Shown in pieces: positions 96-61,057 of a stretch of 64,000 nt of DNA; position 1 is the stretch's first letter; every line of letters begins with the position of its first letter. The stretch spans positions 3,891 to 67,890 of the IMG/VR virus record IMGVR_UViG_3300033143_000663. One strand, 5' to 3'. The notes under the pieces are model-generated. The model had not been told where the DNA came from, did no database searches, and saw only the letters and a program-made list of their open reading frames with translations. The DNA is from a virus. Position numbers and translations under genes: made by a program.

Positions 96-103
96 TATTT
101 ATA
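96..103 (-). promoter_or_regulatory. T4-type late (gp55-dependent) promoter TATAAATA
   Basis: Plus-strand TATTTATA is TATAAATA on the minus strand, about 18 nt before the GIY-YIG ATG. Confidence 0.7.
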
Positions 104-128: not shown

Positions 129-2246
129 TTACCCCGTATTGGTTTTAATTCCTTTAGCAATATCATTACCTTCAACCTGTTTTGTGGTTAACTTTTCTAT
201 TGCTATTCTAATTCCATTTAGTTCTCTTTTAAATTGGTCAACTTCAGCACGTTCGCCTGGCATTACTATACCGTCTGCTCTTGCTGCGGCGTCGGCTTGC
301 ATCATTTGTGCTTTTTTAGCTTTAAATGCTTTTTCTAAGTCTGCTCGTCCTGCATTTGGTCTAGCGACTTCCTTAGGACCTGCTGTTACTTCTGCTTGAA
401 CAGCTCGCGCAATTGCTGCCTTAACAGTTGGATCAACATACATGCTAGTTTTGCCGTGTTCTGTTCTTTTTTCAATATCGTTCGCTGCTCTGGCTGCTTT
501 GATTATCTCTCTAATTTTTTTAGCTTGTGATGGCAGCACCATACCGTCGGCTATACCTAAATCGTTTTCGATGTTATGACGACTCGCCATTGATTCGTTT
601 GCAAACATGTCATCGACTATATCTTCAACATCAATTGACAATTTATCAACTTGACGTTGCGCGGCTTTAACGTACTCTTGATCTTCATCATCTACTGCGT
701 TTGCTGTGCGCTCTTTTAAAATTGCAATCGCTCTTTGTAGTTCGTCGCTTTGGCGAGCAACAATGTTGCCTCTTTCACCTTTACCAAGATCGACTCCATA
801 TTTCTCAGCACCTTCTTTGCCTGCTTTGGCAAATTCTGCGTCGGCTTTTCTTTGTGTTGAAGTTTTCACACCTGCTGCTTTAGCAATTAAATCTGTTGCC
901 ATGTTTATTGTTTCTGCAAATGCCTTCATTGCTTCTGTACCTGCACCAGTGGCTAAAAACATTGCATTCATTCTAGCTGTAACTTCTTGTGTGGTCCGCA
1001 TAGTAGCTGTCGCATTTGCGGTTGCTACATCCTTGCCTTCACGTTGAGCTTTTATATTTTCTAAAGCTATTTTTGCTTCTTCTTCAGATATCTCGTGCTT
1101 CCTTGCCATGTTTGATATTTCTGCTTGACTAACAGCAACAGACTGACCTGTTATTTCAGTAACTCGGTTAAATGTCTTTTCGTGTTTCTTTGCAGATCTT
1201 ATTATAGCGTTATTAAATTCTCTAAAACTCATTTCGCCAGATCTAAATCGTTCGCGCATTTGAAGTATATCAGCACCCATACCTTGTATTGCTAATTTCT
1301 TAGCATCCTCCCCAACAAAGGTACCACTTGCCATTATCTGTTTAACGCCTGCTCGCATGCCTGGCTCAAGTGAATTAATTGAGTCCATCATTTTAGTTTT
1401 TGCTTCTTGAGTTAGATTTGGTAATTCATTTAACATTGCACGAAACTGGTCGTCAGCCATCATGCGATCACGTTCTTGTTCAATTTGAGATCTTTGCTTA
1501 CCTGTCAGCTTTGCAATCATGTCAAGTTCAGATCCATATTTTACTGTGGCTTCTCTTAATTGCTCTGCATCCATTTGACGCATATAACCTATCATTCTCT
1601 CACGTTTCTGGAATTTAATTACAGTGTCACTGATTTCTTCTAAGGTGTAACCTAAGTTTCTAAGGCGATCATCTTCACCTTCTTTCATACTCTTTAATAC
1701 ACCCTGGAATATTTGACCACCTGCTCGAGCAGAACCACTCATGTACGCTAAATCTTCTGAGTTCTTAGTTAATAACTTTGCGTATGTTTGCAATGGCATA
1801 CCAGCATCATCTATTGCCTTTGCTAATCCCGACATACCATCTGCGCCGATTTGACCTGCTGTTGATAACTGTTGGAACGCGTCAAATCCTGCTTGTGTTT
1901 GTTGTATTGTAAATGTTGCTAATTCTTGTGCTGCTTCGCCTAGGCCTTCAATCATACCGCCAACTACTGGTATCTTTCCTAGTAGTCCAGTCATTGCACC
2001 TATAACGCCGTTAACTGCACCTGACAATGCATTAAAGTCACCACTTGATGAACTCATTGCTTTAGTTGAGTCTTTGAACCCTTTGGTTACACCTTTAGTT
2101 GCTTTACCAAGTTCAGTGAGGGACTTACCAGTTTTAGTAGTCTCCATCCACTTTTTAGTTTCAATCTCAATACCTGATTCGCCCAGCCTAGTAGCGTTTT
2201 CAAGGTGATCGATAAGACCTTCTAGTACTTCATTAATATCTGCCAT
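129..2246 (-). CDS. Putative tail tape measure protein
   Basis: 705 aa, helical and Ala/Gly/Lys-rich with a GLLGKIPVVGG segment. Late promoter upstream; adjacent to a frameshifting chaperone/hub gene. Confidence 0.6.
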   Translation of the reverse strand: MADINEVLEGLIDHLENATRLGESGIEIETKKWMETTKTGKSLTELGKATKGVTKGFKDSTKAMSSSSGDFNALSGAVNGVIGAMTGLLGKIPVVGGMIEGLGEAAQELATFTIQQTQAGFDAFQQLSTAGQIGADGMSGLAKAIDDAGMPLQTYAKLLTKNSEDLAYMSGSARAGGQIFQGVLKSMKEGEDDRLRNLGYTLEEISDTVIKFQKRERMIGYMRQMDAEQLREATVKYGSELDMIAKLTGKQRSQIEQERDRMMADDQFRAMLNELPNLTQEAKTKMMDSINSLEPGMRAGVKQIMASGTFVGEDAKKLAIQGMGADILQMRERFRSGEMSFREFNNAIIRSAKKHEKTFNRVTEITGQSVAVSQAEISNMARKHEISEEEAKIALENIKAQREGKDVATANATATMRTTQEVTARMNAMFLATGAGTEAMKAFAETINMATDLIAKAAGVKTSTQRKADAEFAKAGKEGAEKYGVDLGKGERGNIVARQSDELQRAIAILKERTANAVDDEDQEYVKAAQRQVDKLSIDVEDIVDDMFANESMASRHNIENDLGIADGMVLPSQAKKIREIIKAARAANDIEKRTEHGKTSMYVDPTVKAAIARAVQAEVTAGPKEVARPNAGRADLEKAFKAKKAQMMQADAAARADGIVMPGERAEVDQFKRELNGIRIAIEKLTTKQVEGNDIAKGIKTNTG

Positions 2247-2296: not shown

Positions 2297-3139
2297 ATGT
2301 CTGATAATCCTTTATTACAATATTTCAGAAGTCCAGCAATTCATTTAGAATTACCAAGCAAAGGCGAGTACTATGCTAAGGGTAGTCTTATAATGCCTGA
2401 GACTAACGAACTCCCAGTACTACCAATGACTGCATTAGATGAGATTACATACAAAACACCAGATGCATTGTTTAATGGATCAGCTATTGTTGATGTTGTT
2501 AAGAGTTGTATACCAGCTATTGTTGATCCTTGGCAAATGCCAATAACAGATATAACAGCGATATTGTGTGCAATCCGTATTGCAAGCTTCGGACATCAAA
2601 TGGATATTGACACAGTATGTCCAAAGTGTAATAATACTGCTACGTATAGTTTAGATCTAAGAAATATTATTGAAGCAATACAACCACCAGATTATTCCGA
2701 TCCTATGAAAATTGGCGATCTATCATTTTTCTTCAAACCAATGATTTATAAAGATTTAAACGAAAATAATAAATTACAATTTGAAGAAGAGAAGATGTCG
2801 CAGATACTTACTAATTCTGAAATTGATAAGGCACAACAAATTGCAATGTTGTCTGAAGCTTATAAGAAGGTATCTAAATATACTATTGCAACACTAGCTA
2901 AGAATATTAAAACAATTATCACGCCAGACGCATCTGTTGTAAATGAAGAACACATTTTAGAATTCTTACAGAATTGTGAAAATGATGTGTATAAAAAGAT
3001 AAAGAAAGAAATAATTACTCAAAAAATGTCAGAGGCAATAAAGCCATTACATATTAAATGTGAGGAAGAAGAATGTGGTCACGAATATGATCAACCATTT
3101 ACTCTTGACATGACATCTTTTTTCGCGCAAGGCTCTTAA
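2297..3139 (+). CDS. T4 gp26-like baseplate hub assembly / tail chaperone protein
   Basis: LPSKG..Y, PMTALDE, AIRIASFG and CPKC motifs plus a C-terminal C...CGHE..FF ending typical of gp26-like proteins. Confidence 0.7.
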   Translation: MSDNPLLQYFRSPAIHLELPSKGEYYAKGSLIMPETNELPVLPMTALDEITYKTPDALFNGSAIVDVVKSCIPAIVDPWQMPITDITAILCAIRIASFGHQMDIDTVCPKCNNTATYSLDLRNIIEAIQPPDYSDPMKIGDLSFFFKPMIYKDLNENNKLQFEEEKMSQILTNSEIDKAQQIAMLSEAYKKVSKYTIATLAKNIKTIITPDASVVNEEHILEFLQNCENDVYKKIKKEIITQKMSEAIKPLHIKCEEEECGHEYDQPFTLDMTSFFAQGS

Positions 3140-3354
3140 TCCTAACCCCTGAAGAAATTTCCAACTTTGTAGATCAACTCGAAAAAGAATCGGATGCAAT
3201 ACGCAGCGAGTCTCTTAAACTAGCATGGTCTATGCGTGGTGGTGTACAGTACACTGATGTTATGAATATGAGTTTTAACGAACGTGTTATGATTTCAGAA
3301 ATATCTAAAGAAAACCTTGACATTACAAAGAAATCCGGCTTACCCTTCTTCTAA
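3118..3354 (+). CDS. -1 frameshift extension of the gp26-like gene (gp51-like C-terminal part)
   Basis: Slippery T TTT TTC at 3118-3124. The -1 frame is open 3109-3354 (FRARLLILTPEEISNF...LAWSMRGG...KKSGLPFF*), is bounded by TGA at 3106, and has no ATG/GTG/TTG until 3232. Confidence 0.65.
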   Translation, partial: FFRARLLILTPEEISNFVDQLEKESDAIRSESLKLAWSMRGGVQYTDVMNMSFNERVMISEISKENLDITKKSGLPFF

Positions 3355-3389
3355 ACCTAGAAGTTTTAATCAGAATGATGACAATATCC

Positions 3390-4265
3390 TATTGGAGATC
3401 TGCTAACACAGATCTATTCGTCTGTTTCGCTGTCGCTATACAGACTCATGTATGCTTACGCTTAATTAGATTTATTTGTTTAAGAAAGAATAAATTTATT
3501 GTAAGAGCAAAGAGATATATTTGACTAGAACTAAGAGCCATACTCCACCCGCTAAGGGCGGGCCAAAATAAAAAATTAAATTTTTACTTTTGGAGATTTG
3601 TAACTTGACTGTCACGTTTCACCAATGTTATGTAACGTTAAAACCCTTGTTCTATATTTCATTCCATGACTACATAGATCGCAGTAGCTATACCTATAAC
3701 ACCCACACGATAGACAATTATTACTATTAGTAACACGAAGGCGGTCGCCCGCTACCTCCTATGCCCGTCTCTCACAACGGAACTCTCCACCCACCTCGTT
3801 GTGGTCACCAGCAGGTGGAAAGCCGACAGTTGCATTCTTTTTCAAGCAGAGCTGTCATCTTTTAGCCTAAACACTATTTCCCATAATTGATTTCTTTTCA
3901 CAGTCAAACGCATTATATGGTAGGCATATCGCATCGTCATCCGTTGGCACGGGTAGTGACTGTTAACTCCGCTATTGCCCGGAGTATTTAGACTACCTTC
4001 TCACATCAGGAAGGGTTCGTCGGCGCAATAAACCGCCCGCGCTAGGGCTTTCAATAGTGTTTAGGCTAAATCAATAAACTTCCAAAGGGTTCTGTATTAT
4101 CCCACACCGCTCTTGGGTGCATTTGACTGGGTGTCTGTTTGTTGTCCTAGAAGTAACACTCCTTCGCGGAGTTTACCACATTTTAAATGTACACTTTTGG
4201 GCATCGTACATTATTAATGTACGGTCGTTAATAGTGTACAATCAAAGTAAAGTCGGGCTTTACTT
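3390..4265 (-). ncRNA. Putative large (~870 nt) structured non-coding RNA, family not recognised
   Basis: Gene-free region with a perfect 18-bp long-range helix (3861-3878/4053-4070) and many hairpins. GNRA-type loops and most G-U pairs favour the minus strand. TATAAATA promoter at 4277-4270. Confidence 0.65.
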
Positions 4266-4269
4266 GCGA

Positions 4270-4277
4270 TATTTATA
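4270..4277 (-). promoter_or_regulatory. T4-type late promoter TATAAATA pointing into the non-coding region
   Basis: Plus-strand TATTTATA at 4270-4277; no protein gene downstream on the minus strand for about 2 kb. Confidence 0.65.
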
Positions 4278-4306
4278 CGCGCCGCTGACGCCTAATAAAT
4301 AACACT

Positions 4307-4837
4307 ATGCCTTATATAGAGCTTAAAACAAAGGATATTAAGGTCCTTAAAGAAAAACTCCACAAACAGAATAAAAAGATCTGTCCTTTACTTGGCGTAC
4401 CTGTACCCTTAGATAAAACAGCTTTAGATCATATACATAAACTAAAGTCTGAACCTTATGCAGAAGATAAAGGTACTATTCGTAATGCTATCGAATTCCG
4501 TGCTAACGCAATGGAAGGTAAGATAACAAATAACTGGAAGCGATACTTCGGTGCTGATGTATCTAAGCACCCAACCGATCTCCCATCATTCTTACGCAAC
4601 CTAGCTGACTACTTAGAAGCTGGCGCGTACTCTGAGGATGGCGATTACTATATCCACCCTAGTGAGGTACCCAAGGTACCAAAAATTAAAAAATCATCTT
4701 ATAACAAAATGATTAAGCTCTTCAAAGTAAAGTATCCTAAGAAGAAAGTTCCTGCTTATCCAAAATCTAGAAAACTAACAAAACTTATGGATAAACTGTT
4801 TACTGAATTTAGCATAACTGATATCTATTACAGTTAA
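4307..4837 (+). CDS. Endonuclease VII (gp49)-like His-Me finger nuclease with degenerate Zn site
   Basis: CPLL...LDHIH...GTIRNAIEFRANAMEGKI matches the EndoVII DH..G.IR....N..EG pattern; basic C-terminus; AATAAATA just upstream. Confidence 0.7.
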   Translation: MPYIELKTKDIKVLKEKLHKQNKKICPLLGVPVPLDKTALDHIHKLKSEPYAEDKGTIRNAIEFRANAMEGKITNNWKRYFGADVSKHPTDLPSFLRNLADYLEAGAYSEDGDYYIHPSEVPKVPKIKKSSYNKMIKLFKVKYPKKKVPAYPKSRKLTKLMDKLFTEFSITDIYYS

Positions 4838-5839
4838 TCACCATTCTAACGTGTGATCATCATCTGCTAATTTTTCTCTAGTACACTTAGCTGTACATTC
4901 CTGCGATGTAAATAACCGATCACTATACCAATCATCAAGTTTACTAACAGGCTCGTTATATAAGTTAAGAGCATTGCTCGTCCACGATTCGTTGTGTTCA
5001 AATCTATTTGCAACCCAACAACACGGATACAGTTCTCCACGACTATTTAAAAATAATCCTTTGTTACCTATTGTACATATTCCTGCGTTATTAGAAAATA
5101 TTAATTGGTCTTTCCTTAACCGAAAAGTCTCTTTTATACTTTGGCCACAACGAACTTTATTTGTTAAAAATGAAAGCTCACGTTCGTAACGCTCTGATGA
5201 TGATACTAAATCTTTACGTGGTTCTAGTGGATCGTTAGCTGGATAGCTTGAATACTTACTACCAAATTTTGTACTTTTAGTTAATTGAAATAAATCGAAA
5301 TCCATCTCTGTTGCTAACTCTTTCATCTGATCAAGATTATCTTGATTAAACTTAAAAGCAATGGCAGCCCAGACGGTGTATGTTGTATCATTTGCATCAA
5401 TGAAAGCCTCAACACCATCTATAATAGTTTTCCAATTTGAATTAATACGATACATGTTATTAGATGCATCATTAAAACCATCAATGCTCCAGTTAACTTC
5501 ATCGTGTTCATCTAATGCGTATGCTAATTCTCTCCACCAGCACTTAGGTTTATTGCTTCCGTTTGTTATAATAACAATCATAATCTCCGGATTGCATTGT
5601 TTAAACCATTTAATAATATTAATTAGATCCGTGCAATATATAGGGTCGCCATCATTGCCACACAATGTAATTTTTTTAATGTTCTTTACAACGTCAGCGC
5701 CAACATATTCTTTAAAGAAATCTAGTGTTAGTTGTTTATTTAAAAGTGATTCTGGAACTTCAGCCCGCGGGCATCGCGGGCACTTTAACGGACAACGACT
5801 ACTTAATTCTATATGCCAGTGGTCTCTAGCTAAGTTCAT
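4838..5839 (-). CDS. Radical SAM protein with C-terminal twitch/SPASM domain
   Basis: CPLKCPRC (CxxxCxxC), CGNDGDP, TNG, SIDG; C-terminal GELYPCC...CxxxC. Confidence 0.85.
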   Translation of the reverse strand: MNLARDHWHIELSSRCPLKCPRCPRAEVPESLLNKQLTLDFFKEYVGADVVKNIKKITLCGNDGDPIYCTDLINIIKWFKQCNPEIMIVIITNGSNKPKCWWRELAYALDEHDEVNWSIDGFNDASNNMYRINSNWKTIIDGVEAFIDANDTTYTVWAAIAFKFNQDNLDQMKELATEMDFDLFQLTKSTKFGSKYSSYPANDPLEPRKDLVSSSERYERELSFLTNKVRCGQSIKETFRLRKDQLIFSNNAGICTIGNKGLFLNSRGELYPCCWVANRFEHNESWTSNALNLYNEPVSKLDDWYSDRLFTSQECTAKCTREKLADDDHTLEW

Positions 5840-7770
5840 CCAACAGATCCATCATAGCTAGTGAAACCACCTTCTTTAATAACCATCATTGTATTGTTTA
5901 CGCGACTAACTAACTCATCGCGATGACTAACAAGCCACACACTCTTTCCACGCTCACGGGCCATGCCCTTCATAATTTTAATTGCAGCTTCAACCCCATT
6001 GGAGTCTAGGCCGTTGTCAACAAGCTCATCCACAAACAATAAGTTAATATGGTTATATAGGCTTTCCCAAACGTCACGGAAAGCCCAGCTTAATGATAAT
6101 ATAAGTCTGTTGCGTTCACCGCGAGATAAGTTGTCAAAGTCTAAGTCTCGTCCCATGTCTGTAATCTCTACAGTCAAGTCGGACATAAAGCGTACCTGGT
6201 GAGGAAGACCAATTTCATTTAGGTAGTGTGTAAGTCTGTTGTTTAAATAGGCTAAGTTCTGTTCTATAATCTTTTTACGTATGAAGCTGTCTTTACTTGT
6301 TAACAGCTTTAATAAGAACGCTTGATGTTCTTGTAACTCAACAAGTCTATTCATTTCATCATATGAAATGTCTTGGAGTCCTTTGTTTTGCATATCGTGT
6401 ATTTGATCAACATACGGATCTTCGTCCACCATTGCTGTTTCTAATTGTGTAGATAACGTGTCTAGCGTACTCTTGTGTCCGTGCGCCTCATCAACTGTAT
6501 CGTGAAACGTTTCAAGTTTAATTGGTTCAATACGTGCAATAGTTTCTACAACCGGTTGTACTGGCTCTTCTTTAGGTTCAAGTGGAACTCCAAGATCTGC
6601 TAGTTTTAATTTGTATTCTTCTTCATGTTTATTAGCTCGGGTTATATCCTTTTCGATCCTTGCCATATCTTTTTCTTTTGCTGCTTTATTTTCTTCTTGC
6701 TTTTCGTCATGTAGATCTTGTCCACATGCATGACATTTATGATCTGCTAACAAGTCAATATCTGATTGTAGCGACTGACTACGTCTAGTGTAATCAGTTA
6801 TGTCTTTTTCTAAATTAGCAATCCATTTATTTGCATCTGTAATCTCAGCATTGTGTTTGCTTATACCCGCGTTGTGCTTAGTAACTTCGTCTTGATCACT
6901 AACATAGCTAGCCATTGCACCTTCTTGTTCGTCTTGTGCTACCTGTGTTAACCTATACCATTCAGTCTTAGCCGCTTCCCTAGCATTTGTGTTGTCTTTG
7001 TGTTTTTGAATTTCTGCATCAATGTCAACTTCCATTAGCTTTTCAATTTGACCAACATAGTCATTAACAGTTTCATCTTTCTTTAGCTTCCACATACGCT
7101 GCCTGCGCTCAAGCCCGCTAATCTGTTCTTCTATATGCTCGTTAGCTTTAATAACAGCTTCCAGCCTGAACTCTTCTTCTTTAATTTCGTCTTTAGCAAT
7201 TTTGTTAATTGTTTTAAGTGCTTCTGCCTTTTCTGTTAGTACAGTAATGCCAAGCAACTCTTCAATTATATTCTTTTGGTCTACTGTTCGCATTGACAAG
7301 AACGGTGTTGTATATGTGTTTAGTGCAATAGAATGTTTGAACATGTCGTGACTAATGCCAAGCAATCTTGCAATATCTTTTTGCGTTTCTCTCTGCTCGC
7401 CTTGTGCCTCATCATCGTCTTGTTGTTCTACTTTATTCTTATAGAACTTTAATAAATTAGGTTTACGCCCACGCTCAATTCTATATTCAATGTGATCTAT
7501 ATCAAACTCAACACTTACTAGCATGTTCTTTTCGTTTGTTTTATTAATAAGGTTGTTTACTTTAATTTCGGATAGTGCTGCACCATACAATCCATAGCTC
7601 AGGGCATTTATTAGTGTAGTTTTACCTGTACCATTTCTAGATCCATTACTACCAAGATCGAGATTCTCCCCAAGTACTAGTGTTAAGTCATCGCGATTAA
7701 AATCTACAGCTTGTGTAGCATTGCCAATCGACATAAAGTTTTTTACAGTTAGGTTTTTTATTTTTATCAT
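5836..7770 (-). CDS. gp46: Rad50/SbcC-like recombination ATPase (T4 gp46)
   Basis: KNFMSIG, Walker A NGTGKT, coiled coil with CHACGQ zinc hook, LSRGE signature, Walker B LFVDE, SH. Confidence 0.93.
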   Translation of the reverse strand: MIKIKNLTVKNFMSIGNATQAVDFNRDDLTLVLGENLDLGSNGSRNGTGKTTLINALSYGLYGAALSEIKVNNLINKTNEKNMLVSVEFDIDHIEYRIERGRKPNLLKFYKNKVEQQDDDEAQGEQRETQKDIARLLGISHDMFKHSIALNTYTTPFLSMRTVDQKNIIEELLGITVLTEKAEALKTINKIAKDEIKEEEFRLEAVIKANEHIEEQISGLERRQRMWKLKKDETVNDYVGQIEKLMEVDIDAEIQKHKDNTNAREAAKTEWYRLTQVAQDEQEGAMASYVSDQDEVTKHNAGISKHNAEITDANKWIANLEKDITDYTRRSQSLQSDIDLLADHKCHACGQDLHDEKQEENKAAKEKDMARIEKDITRANKHEEEYKLKLADLGVPLEPKEEPVQPVVETIARIEPIKLETFHDTVDEAHGHKSTLDTLSTQLETAMVDEDPYVDQIHDMQNKGLQDISYDEMNRLVELQEHQAFLLKLLTSKDSFIRKKIIEQNLAYLNNRLTHYLNEIGLPHQVRFMSDLTVEITDMGRDLDFDNLSRGERNRLILSLSWAFRDVWESLYNHINLLFVDELVDNGLDSNGVEAAIKIMKGMARERGKSVWLVSHRDELVSRVNNTMMVIKEGGFTSYDGSVG

Positions 7771-42525: not shown

Positions 42526-42832
42526 AGAAGCACTAAAATTAACAGATAACGTCGCACCGGTTGAACTTGAATTTAGACTGTACTACGACACTGAAACAAA
42601 TCTTCCATTATTTTATTCAATGGAAGAACAGCAAGGTGACTATATAAATATATCCAAGGAAGAATTTGCCGAATGTAGGTACGATATTATTATTAAAGAT
42701 AGCAAGATATGTAAAGTTACACACTTGTCGATTGGTAAATTGGTGCCTACGCACTTTGGATACGGCACAACAAAAGATGATATTACTATTGTGGGTAACG
42801 AACAGAATTGGAATATGAAAACATATGATTGA
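42506..42832 (+). CDS. Hypothetical protein
   Basis: Overlapping ORF within the operon. Confidence 0.65.
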   Translation: MTLTPFEEALKLTDNVAPVELEFRLYYDTETNLPLFYSMEEQQGDYINISKEEFAECRYDIIIKDSKICKVTHLSIGKLVPTHFGYGTTKDDITIVGNEQNWNMKTYD

Positions 42833-60348: not shown

Positions 60349-60368
60349 GTTAGATCTTTATCCTTCTG

Positions 60369-60611
60369 TTAACTTAGTTTAGCATACCCCATCTTAAAAA
60401 TCAATGCATCTTTGTCCGATTCGAACCACACGGATTTAATAAGAATCATGTACGCACCTTCGCAGTGCTGATCAATCCAGCTTGATATATTACTTAATTT
60501 CATCCTGAATACTCTATCTTCTAAGGATCCGCGCGGTTGGAGATCGTCTGGTAAAGTAATACTGTACACAGACTCATAGAAATCCGCAGGGTCGTATGAT
60601 CTAGTTGCCAT
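60369..60611 (-). CDS. Small paralogue-family protein
   Basis: WIDQHCEGAY...WFESDKDALIFKMGY; likely start MATRS. Confidence 0.7.
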   Translation of the reverse strand: MATRSYDPADFYESVYSITLPDDLQPRGSLEDRVFRMKLSNISSWIDQHCEGAYMILIKSVWFESDKDALIFKMGYAKLS

Positions 60612-60819
60612 TGTCTTTCTTACGTAGTCTGTTAACAAGTAGGCTCAGCAGGTGTTGTCCGAGCATGAGTACAGCAACTGAACCTACTAGGTATGCCGGC
60701 ATCCATATAGCAAACGGTACAGGCATTTCCAATGCTAACTTCTCAAACCACATGGCGTTCACTACGAGGAAACCGATGCTCCATACAAGTACAGGAAAAT
60801 TAACTTTGTTAAGTTTCAT
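60601..60819 (-). CDS. Small membrane protein (2 TM)
   Basis: Two hydrophobic stretches; overlaps neighbours. Confidence 0.65.
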   Translation of the reverse strand: MKLNKVNFPVLVWSIGFLVVNAMWFEKLALEMPVPFAIWMPAYLVGSVAVLMLGQHLLSLLVNRLRKKDNGN

Positions 60820-61057
60820 CTTTGTATCCTAATTTAAACATTACATAATCCATCTCATCCTCGAACGCAACTCGATTTGCCACTAAATGAAATTGCCCGG
60901 TGGTGTATGTTTCTATCCATACCATCATCTTAGTTGTGTTAGCTTCTGGATTGTTAAAATAATAATAGTGCCAGTCTAATGTTTTGTACCCATCAATACA
61001 TCTCCGCGATCTAAGATTCCGTACAGTATCTAGAATTGGTATTAACTTAGTTGTCAC
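60809..61057 (-). CDS. Small paralogue-family protein
   Basis: WIETYTTGQF...AFEDEMDYVMFKLGY. Confidence 0.7.
   Translation of the reverse strand: MTTKLIPILDTVRNLRSRRCIDGYKTLDWHYYYFNNPEANTTKMMVWIETYTTGQFHLVANRVAFEDEMDYVMFKLGYKDET

What the first reader, a model, noticed from the sequence alone, without database searches (positions are those of the whole stretch)
3390..4277. Candidate ~870-nt, late-promoter-driven, highly structured phage ncRNA of unrecognised class
Seen: this is the only large gene-free interval in an otherwise tightly packed 64 kb. A consensus TATAAATA (minus, 4277-4270) points into it, and a hairpin starts at the expected TSS (4245-4252/4258-4265). A perfect 18-bp helix (TTTAGCCTAAACACTATT 3861-3878 / 4053-4070) closes a ~175-nt multibranch domain. 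That domain holds inner stems ACAGTCA 3900-3906/TGACTGT 3957-3963, ACTCCG/CGGAGT, CCTTC/GAAGG and GCCC/GGGC, plus a possible pseudoknot (3881-3887 with 3912-3920). Further nested stems sit at 4188-4240, 4158-4172, 3782-3823, 3765-3780 and 3737-3758. On the minus strand the loops read GCGA, GAAA and GCGAA (GNRA-type), and most mismatches become G-U pairs (e.g. GCUUUCCAC/GUGGAGAGU), as expected for selection on RNA rather than DNA. Established: phages carry large ornate ncRNAs such as GOLLD and ROOL. Inference: this is a functional large RNA that I cannot assign to a known family.
Basis: partly seen in the sequence, partly recalled or inferred. Interest (0 to 1): 0.88.

Follow-up and report, generated by a model that had tools for sequence, protein, structure and literature searches.

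The report
Large folded RNA gene of giant phages
The gene-free gap holds a real, roughly 850-base folded non-coding RNA of an uncultured giant T4-like phage; one of its domains is already catalogued as the "Polynucleobacter-1" motif, the rest is not, and its job is still unknown.

Summary
Window 3355-4306 has no credible ORF, and its minus strand folds far better than shuffles (z -6.4; plus strand -3.7).

This is a real structured RNA gene read from the minus strand. Six full-length homologues give 127 predicted pairs, 44 with compensatory changes. G-U pairs outnumber A-C pairs 99:11.

A 155-nt core (3712-3866) recurs in 45 of 78 further gp26 loci, always opposite to gp26. It occurs once in each of 5 records searched. 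In 48 distinct sequences, 25 of 32 pairs covary, and no shuffle of 500 reaches this.

It is not wholly unrecognised. The domain inside the 18-bp helix (3906-4047) is a divergent homologue of Rfam RF01718 (Polynucleobacter-1). The window scores 22.3 bits, below the 37-bit cut-off. Three alignable relatives score 38.5-39.2.

The core and the remaining domains match no Rfam family. TATAAATA is kept in 5 of 5 nearest relatives but is absent in the wider family, where the RNA follows a small nuclease gene.

Function is unknown and no expression data were available. Earlier agents of this scan found the same family on other genomes.

The parts
4270..4277 (-). TATAAATA, T4-late-type promoter-like box pointing into the gap; start of transcription inferred near 4264
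   Evidence: 4 copies in 64 kb against 9.2 expected; kept 327-411 nt upstream of the core in 5 of 5 nearest relatives (window, L002/L006, L017, L007, L024). It is absent in L060 and all other loci scanned.
4188..4265 (-). two 5' hairpins (4245-4265 and 4188-4240), specific to this phage
   Evidence: Present in the sequence and in the MFE fold. Deleted in L006 and replaced by other sequence in L017 and L007.
4071..4172 (-). conserved 5' region with the CUCC-GCGAA-GGAG hairpin (4158-4172) and a CACC/GGUG hairpin (about 4098-4117)
   Evidence: Alignment A2. L017 has compensatory CAUC/GAUG and GCGG/CCGC versions of the two stems.
3861..4070 (-). domain closed by the 18-bp helix (4053-4070 with 3861-3878)
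   Evidence: helix 2: 18 pairs, 6 with changes on both sides, 98.1% of cells paired. L060 and L024 carry compensated versions.
3906..4047 (-). divergent Polynucleobacter-1 (Rfam RF01718) domain
   Evidence: 22.3 bits, E 0.021, model 1-141 (cut-off 37). Homologous places in relatives score 17.3-38.7, and 39.2 and 38.5.
3712..3866 (-). family-wide core domain (model R1: helices H1, H2, H4, H5 plus conserved unpaired blocks); not in Rfam
   Evidence: window 95.9 bits; 93.1% of cells paired against 73.8% in shuffles, 25 of 32 pairs compensated, 0 of 500 shuffles as good; no Rfam hit here at E up to 10.
3605..3610 (-). twin box 1 (AGUCAA)
   Evidence: The same word recurs at 3521-3526. Relatives carry other words, again twice, at the same two places.
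3545..3564 (-). conserved hairpin GGCCCGCC-CUUA-GCGGGUGG between the twin boxes
   Evidence: helix 17: 6 pairs, 91.7% of cells paired.
3521..3526 (-). twin box 2 (AGUCAA)
3396..3445 (-). two 3' hairpins (3420-3445 and 3396-3415), kept across the whole family; the 3' end of the RNA is not mapped
   Evidence: helix 19; the last two helices of the distant-clade alignment, many compensated pairs. The scan for terminator-like sites in 3200-4400 found none here.

Best explanation
Window 3355-4306 carries, on the minus strand, the gene for a stand-alone structured non-coding RNA of about 850 nt. It is an expanded, divergent member of an RNA family that T4-like jumbo phages keep once per genome. The family sits at the point where the baseplate-hub (gp26) gene block meets the nuclease/gp46/gp47 block.

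Shown: the fold is conserved through compensatory changes, the strand is the minus strand, and the RNA is modular. The modules are a family-wide 155-nt core, 3' hairpins with twin boxes, and in some clades a Polynucleobacter-1-type domain directly 5' of the core. In this clade an 18-bp helix closes that domain.

Inferred: in this phage the RNA is made late in infection from its own TATAAATA promoter, with a start near 4264.

Inferred and weakest: it acts in trans as a folded scaffold that binds a protein or assembles with itself, not as a leader, terminator or primer. Within a real RNA gene I put roughly 55% on the trans-acting scaffold reading. The many invariant unpaired blocks in the core would then be contact surfaces. 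The twin boxes would be a rapidly changing specificity or pairing element.
For: Homologues: L006/L002 (78% identity over window 3394-4181), L017 and L007. Profile searches then added L060, L024, L061, L038 and many more, all on the strand opposite to gp26.

Full length, 6 sequences, MAFFT alignment not fitted to a structure: 127 pairs, 44 with changes on both sides against 18.2 in shuffles. Covariation score is 0.366 against at most 0.129 when partners are slid. None of 500 shuffles reaches the observed value.

Core, 48 distinct sequences: 93.1% of cells paired, 25 of 32 pairs compensated, score 0.458 against at most 0.101 when slid, 0 of 500 shuffles as good.

Strand: G-U to A-C cells are 266:17 in the core and 99:11 at full length.

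Spread: the core is in 45 of 78 gp26 loci within a 3-kb flank. In 4 of 5 records whose locus gave no hit, it lies just beyond that flank. It is single copy in 5 of 5 records, including 3 genomes at least 98% complete.

No coding capacity. RF01718 link. Promoter.
Against: No expression data: no RNA run was listed that holds the stretch, so the transcript, its ends and its timing are all inferred.

The consensus structure was predicted from the same alignment it was scored on. The core alignment is fitted to the model. Both lean towards the structure.

In most of the family there is no TATAAATA. There the RNA starts right after a nuclease gene on the same strand. That fits a 3'-UTR element as well as a separate RNA.

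The scan found no terminator-like site at the 3' end of the conserved region. Two syntenic relatives, L008 and L011, have no detectable core anywhere in their records. Nothing here tests a trans-acting role.
Confidence: 0.8

Rival explanations
1. It is a cis-acting part of a messenger. It would be a structured 3' untranslated region at the end of the nuclease/gp46/gp47 transcription unit. There it would protect the mRNA from 3' exonucleases, stop transcription that converges on the gp26 block, or autoregulate the nuclease.
For: In the wider family the RNA begins about 100 nt after the stop codon of a small nuclease gene on the same strand, with no late-type box between them. The RNA always lies where two gene blocks converge. 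The 2010 paper's table lists Polynucleobacter-1 as a likely cis-regulatory candidate.
Against: In the window the nuclease gene is on the other strand, so the RNA is in no gene's untranslated region. It has its own conserved TATAAATA instead. The nuclease next door belongs to three unrelated folds. That argues against specific autoregulation. A 155-nt multi-helix core with invariant unpaired blocks is far more than a terminator or stabiliser needs.
Confidence: 0.12
2. It is a replication or recombination RNA. It would be a structured pre-primer, or an R-loop-forming origin transcript in the manner of ColE1 RNA II or the T4 origin transcripts (both recalled). It would work with the neighbouring resolvase, gp46/gp47 and, in Phosso, RNase HI.
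For: It is constantly next to recombination genes. In Phosso an RNase HI gene borders the equivalent gap. The RNA is G-rich over the core: plus-strand GC skew is -0.38 to -0.29 at 3601-3900.
Against: A late promoter fits origin firing poorly, because in T4 this is an early or middle event (recalled). R-loop primers need no covarying multi-helix core. Nothing here tests it. An earlier scan note on a relative (e1-5370389) says it 'does not look like a replication primer', which I did not check.
Confidence: 0.04
3. The signal is in the DNA, not the RNA. It would be a cluster of inverted repeats serving as a protein-binding, packaging or cruciform site, or a remnant of a mobile intron or homing element linked to the nuclease.
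For: Both strands fold better than shuffles. Homing-type nucleases (SegE-type GIY-YIG) sit beside it in many relatives. The pre-box plus box 2 stretch is a near-palindrome in the distant clade.
Against: G-U pairs outnumber A-C pairs 266:17 and 99:11, so pairing is kept on one strand only. No group I or II intron model scores at E up to 10. No host gene is interrupted. The element is single copy and fixed in position.
Confidence: 0.04

Closest known systems
Polynucleobacter-1 RNA motif (Rfam RF01718; Weinberg et al. 2010, PMC2864571. I saw only the search listing and the one table row)
   Same: Window 3906-4047 (minus) matches the whole 141-position model. Homologous places in 5 of 5 relatives tested also match. 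One of those, plus two further relatives, score above the 37-bit cut-off. The hairpins of the model are kept with compensatory changes (helices 3-9).
   Different: The window copy scores 22.3 bits, below the cut-off. The catalogued motif is 141 nt. Here it is one domain of an ~850-nt RNA, wrapped in an 18-bp helix and followed by a more widely conserved 155-nt core that Rfam lacks. Two complete genomes of the family have the core but no RF01718 match. The table lists the motif as a possible cis-regulatory element of Burkholderiales and fresh water. Here it lies in phage DNA with no gene downstream.
GOLLD and ROOL, large ornate RNAs often found in phages and prophages (PMC12286853; abstract seen in the listings)
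   Same: A large, multi-domain, phage-borne non-coding RNA with extensive covariation and no known function.
   Different: No sequence or structure match to any Rfam model at E up to 10 in 3200-4450 apart from RF01718. This RNA is not next to tRNA genes: there are no tRNAs in the window. Self-assembly is untested here.
ColE1 RNA II type replication pre-primer (recalled, not tested)
   Same: A structured RNA several hundred nt long, with its own promoter, next to replication and recombination functions.
   Different: No homology was tested or seen. The promoter is of the late type. No origin features were examined.

Membership tests
Rfam RF01718 Polynucleobacter-1 | score at or above the curated gathering cut-off (37 bits) | tested here: not met
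   The window scores 22.3 bits, E 0.021. There is no hit in gathering mode.
Rfam RF01718 Polynucleobacter-1 | end-to-end match to the model at a place homologous to sequences that do pass the cut-off | tested here: met
   Model positions 1-141 are matched in the window. The L060 record scores 38.7, L038 39.2 and L061 38.5 bits. These RNAs align with the window's over most of their length.
Rfam RF01718 Polynucleobacter-1 | model helices kept by compensatory change | tested here: met
   helices 3-9: 41 pairs, 14 with changes on both sides. Six of the seven helices have 90-100% of cells paired. The 3-pair helix 4 has 72.2%.
Rfam RF01718 Polynucleobacter-1 | position in the 5' untranslated region of a conserved gene (recalled description; the paper's table says only 'cis-regulatory: y') | tested here: not met
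   There is no ORF downstream on the minus strand before the convergent gp26 frame. In relatives the domain is followed by the core RNA, not by a gene.
Jumbo-phage core RNA family defined here (model R1) | match to the 150-position, 32-pair core model | tested here: met
   The window scores 95.9 bits, E 3.6e-21. The window was one of the 33 seed sequences, so this match is by construction. Non-seed hits score 21.7-49.5 bits. L112-L116 score 159-166 bits.
Jumbo-phage core RNA family defined here (model R1) | single copy, downstream of the gp26 block, on the opposite strand | tested here: met
   One hit per record in 5 of 5 records. 51 of 52 hits are on the strand opposite to gp26.
GOLLD, ROOL, HEARO, OLE, group I and II introns, RNase P, tmRNA, 6S | match to the family's covariance model or detector | tested here: not met
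   No such family at E up to 10 in 3200-4450. None at gathering level in the whole window. ARAGORN finds no tRNA or tmRNA.

The most novel reading that the evidence does not exclude
The RNA is a programmable or self-assembling machine. The two short boxes that flank the conserved hairpin change between phages but stay identical within each RNA. They would be specificity elements. One possibility is that they pair in cis or in trans to build RNA-only dimers or cages, since the stretch before box 2 plus box 2 is a near-palindrome in the distant clade. Another is that they read a phage-specific nucleic-acid target for the nuclease encoded next door. Either would be a new functional class of phage RNA.
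Probability: 0.12. Interest if true: 0.9.

Novelty: new variant of a known kind. Interest (0 to 1): 0.64.

Why it matters
Large, intricately folded RNAs without a known job are rare, and past examples have led to new biochemistry.

This one is kept once per genome at a fixed place in an abundant group of uncultured giant phages. It shows that a motif catalogued since 2010 as a doubtful 141-nt element is one optional domain of a much larger RNA. It also comes with a clear covariation-backed model and an odd twin-box feature that can be tested by mutation.

The weak point is that no cultured phage certainly carries it. PA5oct is only a candidate. Escherichia phage PBECO4 has an unannotated gap at the same place, but no homology could be detected there.

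Tried and rejected
Known RNA families. Rfam at gathering level on the window, and on L008 and L011, gave nothing. In E-value mode on 3200-4450 only RF01718 was notable. The other five hits (RT-14, PyrC leader, snoR104, mir-5014, Histone3) had E 1.7-6.9 and I treat them as chance. From memory I noticed two 9-10-nt coincidences with bacterial RNase P RNA. I dropped this because no RNase P model scored and the stretches are not conserved in L007, L060 or L024.

DNA similarity to deposited phages: no match.

Exact-pattern scans found only four other records. Three hits (L015, L016, L019) were chance matches inside coding sequence.

Expression: no RNA holder was listed. Nine DNA or unknown runs hold only 4-9% of the sampled words. 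I did not lay any reads.

Cultured phages. RF01718 is absent from Atu_ph07, Phosso, PA5oct and PBECO4. R1 and the wider R2 gave only PA5oct at 20.1 and 18.8 bits, beside a noise hit of 17.2 bits, so this is unproven. The PA5oct paper lists four ncRNAs, none at that place (passages read). I could not open its supplements, which might show coverage there.

L008 and L011 have the same gene order, but neither a profile nor a model finds the RNA. The L008 gap folds at z -1.55 only.

I looked for a covarying partner of the twin boxes and found none in the near clade. A repeated 6-mer in the window alone is not significant: 500 of 500 shuffles have one.

Literature. 'Polynucleobacter-1' occurs in one paper of the library. 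Four other searches listed no paper whose title or abstract describes this RNA. I read none of those papers.

Full report
WHAT IS THERE

The window is part of a 67.9-kb viral record that CheckV rates 19% complete. It belongs to a T4-like jumbo phage. Around the finding lie:
- a virion protein gene (129-2246, minus strand);
- the baseplate-hub gene gp26 (2297-3139, plus; PF12322);
- an endonuclease VII gene (4307-4837, plus);
- a radical SAM gene (4838-5839, minus);
- gp46 (5836-7770, minus).

gp26 runs on by a -1 shift at T_TTT_TTC (3118-3124) into a frame that ends at 3354. The true gap is therefore 3355-4306. Its longest stop-to-stop frame (64 aa) is no longer than shuffles give (82 +/- 19 aa).

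The minus strand folds at -283.1 kcal/mol (z -6.42) and the plus strand at -252.7 (z -3.70).

HOMOLOGUES

There is no DNA match among deposited phages. Protein-anchored and pattern scans of viral contigs found four close relatives of the gap:
- L006/L002 (L005 is identical to it over 366 nt);
- L017;
- L007.

I then aligned 21 gp26 proteins and fetched 80 gp26 loci. Profile searches found the RNA downstream of gp26, on the opposite strand, in many of them. L060 and L024 are full-length intermediates.

IS IT A STRUCTURED RNA, AND ON WHICH STRAND

Six full-length sequences were aligned by MAFFT, with no structure imposed.
- RNAalifold predicts 127 pairs.
- 44 pairs have changes on both sides, against 18.2 +/- 3.0 when partners are shuffled.
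- 92.2% of cells pair, against 84.8% in shuffles.
- The covariation score is 0.366, against at most 0.129 when partners are slid by 1-3 columns.
- None of 500 shuffles reaches the observed value on any measure.

One caveat applies here: the structure was predicted from the same alignment.

It is almost invariant among the four closest sequences but compensated in L060 and L024.

G-U cells outnumber A-C cells 99:11 at full length and 266:17 in the core. Pairing is therefore kept on the minus strand only. This points to RNA, not DNA.

THE FAMILY-WIDE CORE

The most widely conserved piece is window 3712-3866. I aligned 33 distinct copies, wrote four helices by hand, and built model R1.

On 92 sources R1 found 52 matches at E up to 1, and 51 of them lie on the strand opposite to gp26. 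Of the 78 gp26 loci L023-L100, 45 have a hit at E of 0.01 or less.

On the 48 distinct sequences:
- 93.1% of cells pair, against 73.8% in shuffles;
- 25 of 32 pairs are compensated;
- the score is 0.458, against at most 0.101 when slid;
- 0 of 500 shuffles reach it.

This alignment is fitted to the model, which favours the structure.

Five loci without a hit were followed into their whole records. Four had the core just outside the 3-kb flank. In the fifth, gp26 lies at the contig end.

The core occurs exactly once in each of five records, three of them at least 98% complete genomes of 340-347 kb. No Rfam family matches it.

THE KNOWN PART

In E-value mode the only notable Rfam hit in the gap is RF01718, Polynucleobacter-1. 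It lies at 3906-4047 (minus), scores 22.3 bits with E 0.021, covers the full model, and is below the 37-bit cut-off.

The same model hits the homologous place in 5 of 5 relatives (17.3-38.7 bits). L060 is above the cut-off. The records of L038 (39.2 bits) and L061 (38.5 bits) also pass. In L038 the hit maps to locus 5866-6005 by my own coordinate arithmetic, directly 5' of the core at 5673-5817.

Two complete genomes of the majority clade have the core but no RF01718 match.

The catalogued motif is therefore an optional domain of a larger RNA. In the window it is the domain wrapped by the 18-bp helix. The only paper in the library that names the motif is Weinberg et al. 2010. Its table lists it as Burkholderiales and fresh water/estuary, RNA 'y', cis-regulatory 'y'. 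Its supplements were not available.

ARCHITECTURE ACROSS THE FAMILY

In the majority clade the RNA is about 430 nt long and sits in a ~400-nt gap. Fourteen sequences give 86 predicted pairs, 32 of them compensated. That form holds 5' hairpins, the core, a conserved hairpin and two 3' hairpins.

The window's form adds the RF01718 domain with its 18-bp helix, a conserved 5' region, and phage-specific 5' hairpins.

TRANSCRIPTION

TATAAATA is under-represented in the window: 4 copies against 9.2 expected. Its copies lie:
- 31 nt before the gp26 start;
- downstream of the 129-2246 gene, on that gene's strand;
- upstream of this RNA;
- once inside a coding region.

The box is kept 327-411 nt upstream of the core in 5 of 5 nearest relatives. 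This holds even in L017, where the neighbouring gene differs. It also precedes gp26 in L021, L022, L060 and L075. An own late promoter is thus a fair inference for this clade.

In L060 and in all 34 other loci scanned there is no such box within the upstream stretch examined. That stretch was up to 700 nt, and shorter in several loci that end sooner. There the RNA follows a nuclease gene on the same strand.

The scan found no terminator-like site at the 3' end of the conserved region. No RNA run was listed that holds the stretch. Ends and timing remain inferred.

NEIGHBOURS

The gene upstream of the RNA is always a small nuclease, but its fold differs:
- endonuclease VII in the window, L006, L007 and PBECO4;
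- SegE-type GIY-YIG in L055 and L060, fused into a 409-aa protein in L017;
- PDDEXK_15/RusA-like in L070, L038 and L061.

I read this as a conserved resolvase or nuclease slot filled by unrelated enzymes. That argues against a specific RNA-protein pair but does not exclude one.

TWIN BOXES

This lead came from earlier scan notes, and I tested it here. In the 14-sequence alignment, columns 330-336 equal columns 388-394 in 13 of 14 sequences, in five different versions.

In the near clade the two places flanking the conserved hairpin carry:
- AGUCAA twice in the window (3605-3610 and 3521-3526);
- AGGUCAA twice in L006;
- GUUCGA twice in L007;
- GGUGAA twice in L060;
- only AGCCA twice in L017;
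- nothing clear in L024.

A repeated 6-mer alone means nothing, since 500 of 500 shuffles have one. The signal is the shared position and the joint change.

In the distant clade, box 1 can pair with the 7 nt before box 2 in 12 of 14 sequences. That makes this stretch plus box 2 a near-palindrome. I found no covarying partner in the near clade. The feature is unexplained.

CULTURED RELATIVES

The nearest isolates by gp26 are Phosso (34%), Atu_ph07 (32%), PA5oct (28.5%) and the PBECO4/121Q group (27%).

PBECO4 has the same gene order, with an unannotated 836-nt gap. That gap's minus strand folds at z -4.06 and holds a hairpin followed by a run of U. Neither RF01718, R1 nor R2 finds anything there.

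PA5oct gives a syntenic hit on the expected strand at 18.8-20.1 bits. This is record 76333-76518, plus strand, by my own conversion of locus coordinates. The hit has the family's signature unpaired blocks. A 17.2-bit noise hit nearby shows it is not secure.

VERDICT

This is a real RNA gene and an expanded, divergent member of a jumbo-phage RNA family. Only one domain of that family is catalogued. The function is unknown.

My leading reading is a trans-acting folded scaffold made late in infection. The main rival is a cis-acting 3' element.

Earlier agents of this scan reached the same family assignment on other genomes. I arrived at it independently before reading their notes.

Noticed in passing
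window 3106-3354: gp26 ends with a correctly phased -1 slippery heptamer (T_TTT_TTC, 3118-3124) that opens an 81-codon frame up to 3354. PBECO4 and Phosso annotate a separate small CDS at the same place (L110 4337-4546, L108 4334-4564).
   Followed up: partly
L110 4547-5382 (Escherichia phage PBECO4, NC_027364): There is an unannotated 836-nt gap between the gp26 extension and endonuclease VII, the same gene order as the window. Its minus strand folds at z -4.06 and holds a hairpin followed by a U run. No homology to this RNA family could be detected.
   Followed up: partly
L109 5687-5872 (Pseudomonas phage PA5oct, NC_071039 about 76333-76518, plus strand): A candidate diverged core at the syntenic place and strand (18.8-20.1 bits) overlaps a 39-codon annotated CDS (gp338). 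It is not among the four ncRNAs of the PA5oct paper.
   Followed up: partly
L112 and L113 (two contigs of a MAG titled Haliscomenobacter sp.): Both contigs (148 and 183 kb) carry gp26 and a 163-166-bit core RNA, and L113 also carries gp46. They are 77% identical to each other over 2.2 kb. They are therefore phage contigs binned with a Bacteroidota genome, which is at most a weak host hint.
   Followed up: partly
window 4307-4837; L055 5756-6184; L060 4846-5280; L017 5134-6363; L070 5792-6298; L038 6034-6555: The gene slot upstream of the RNA is filled by nucleases of three unrelated folds in different clades: endonuclease VII, SegE-type GIY-YIG and PDDEXK_15/RusA-like.
   Followed up: partly
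L008 3159-4000 and L011 2660-4000: These two relatives have the same gp26-gap-endonuclease VII order (endonuclease VII 80-83% identical). They have no detectable core anywhere in their records. The L008 gap keeps a few short motifs by eye but folds at z -1.55 only.
   Followed up: partly
window 96-103, 2259-2266, 4270-4277, 42643-42650: TATAAATA is under-represented (4 copies against 9.2 expected). In the distant clade gp26 is instead preceded by a conserved AACTATATTTA-like word just before the ribosome-binding site.
   Followed up: partly
window 60349-61046: This is a second stretch of about 700 nt without an ORF of 90 aa or more. I did not examine it.
   Followed up: no
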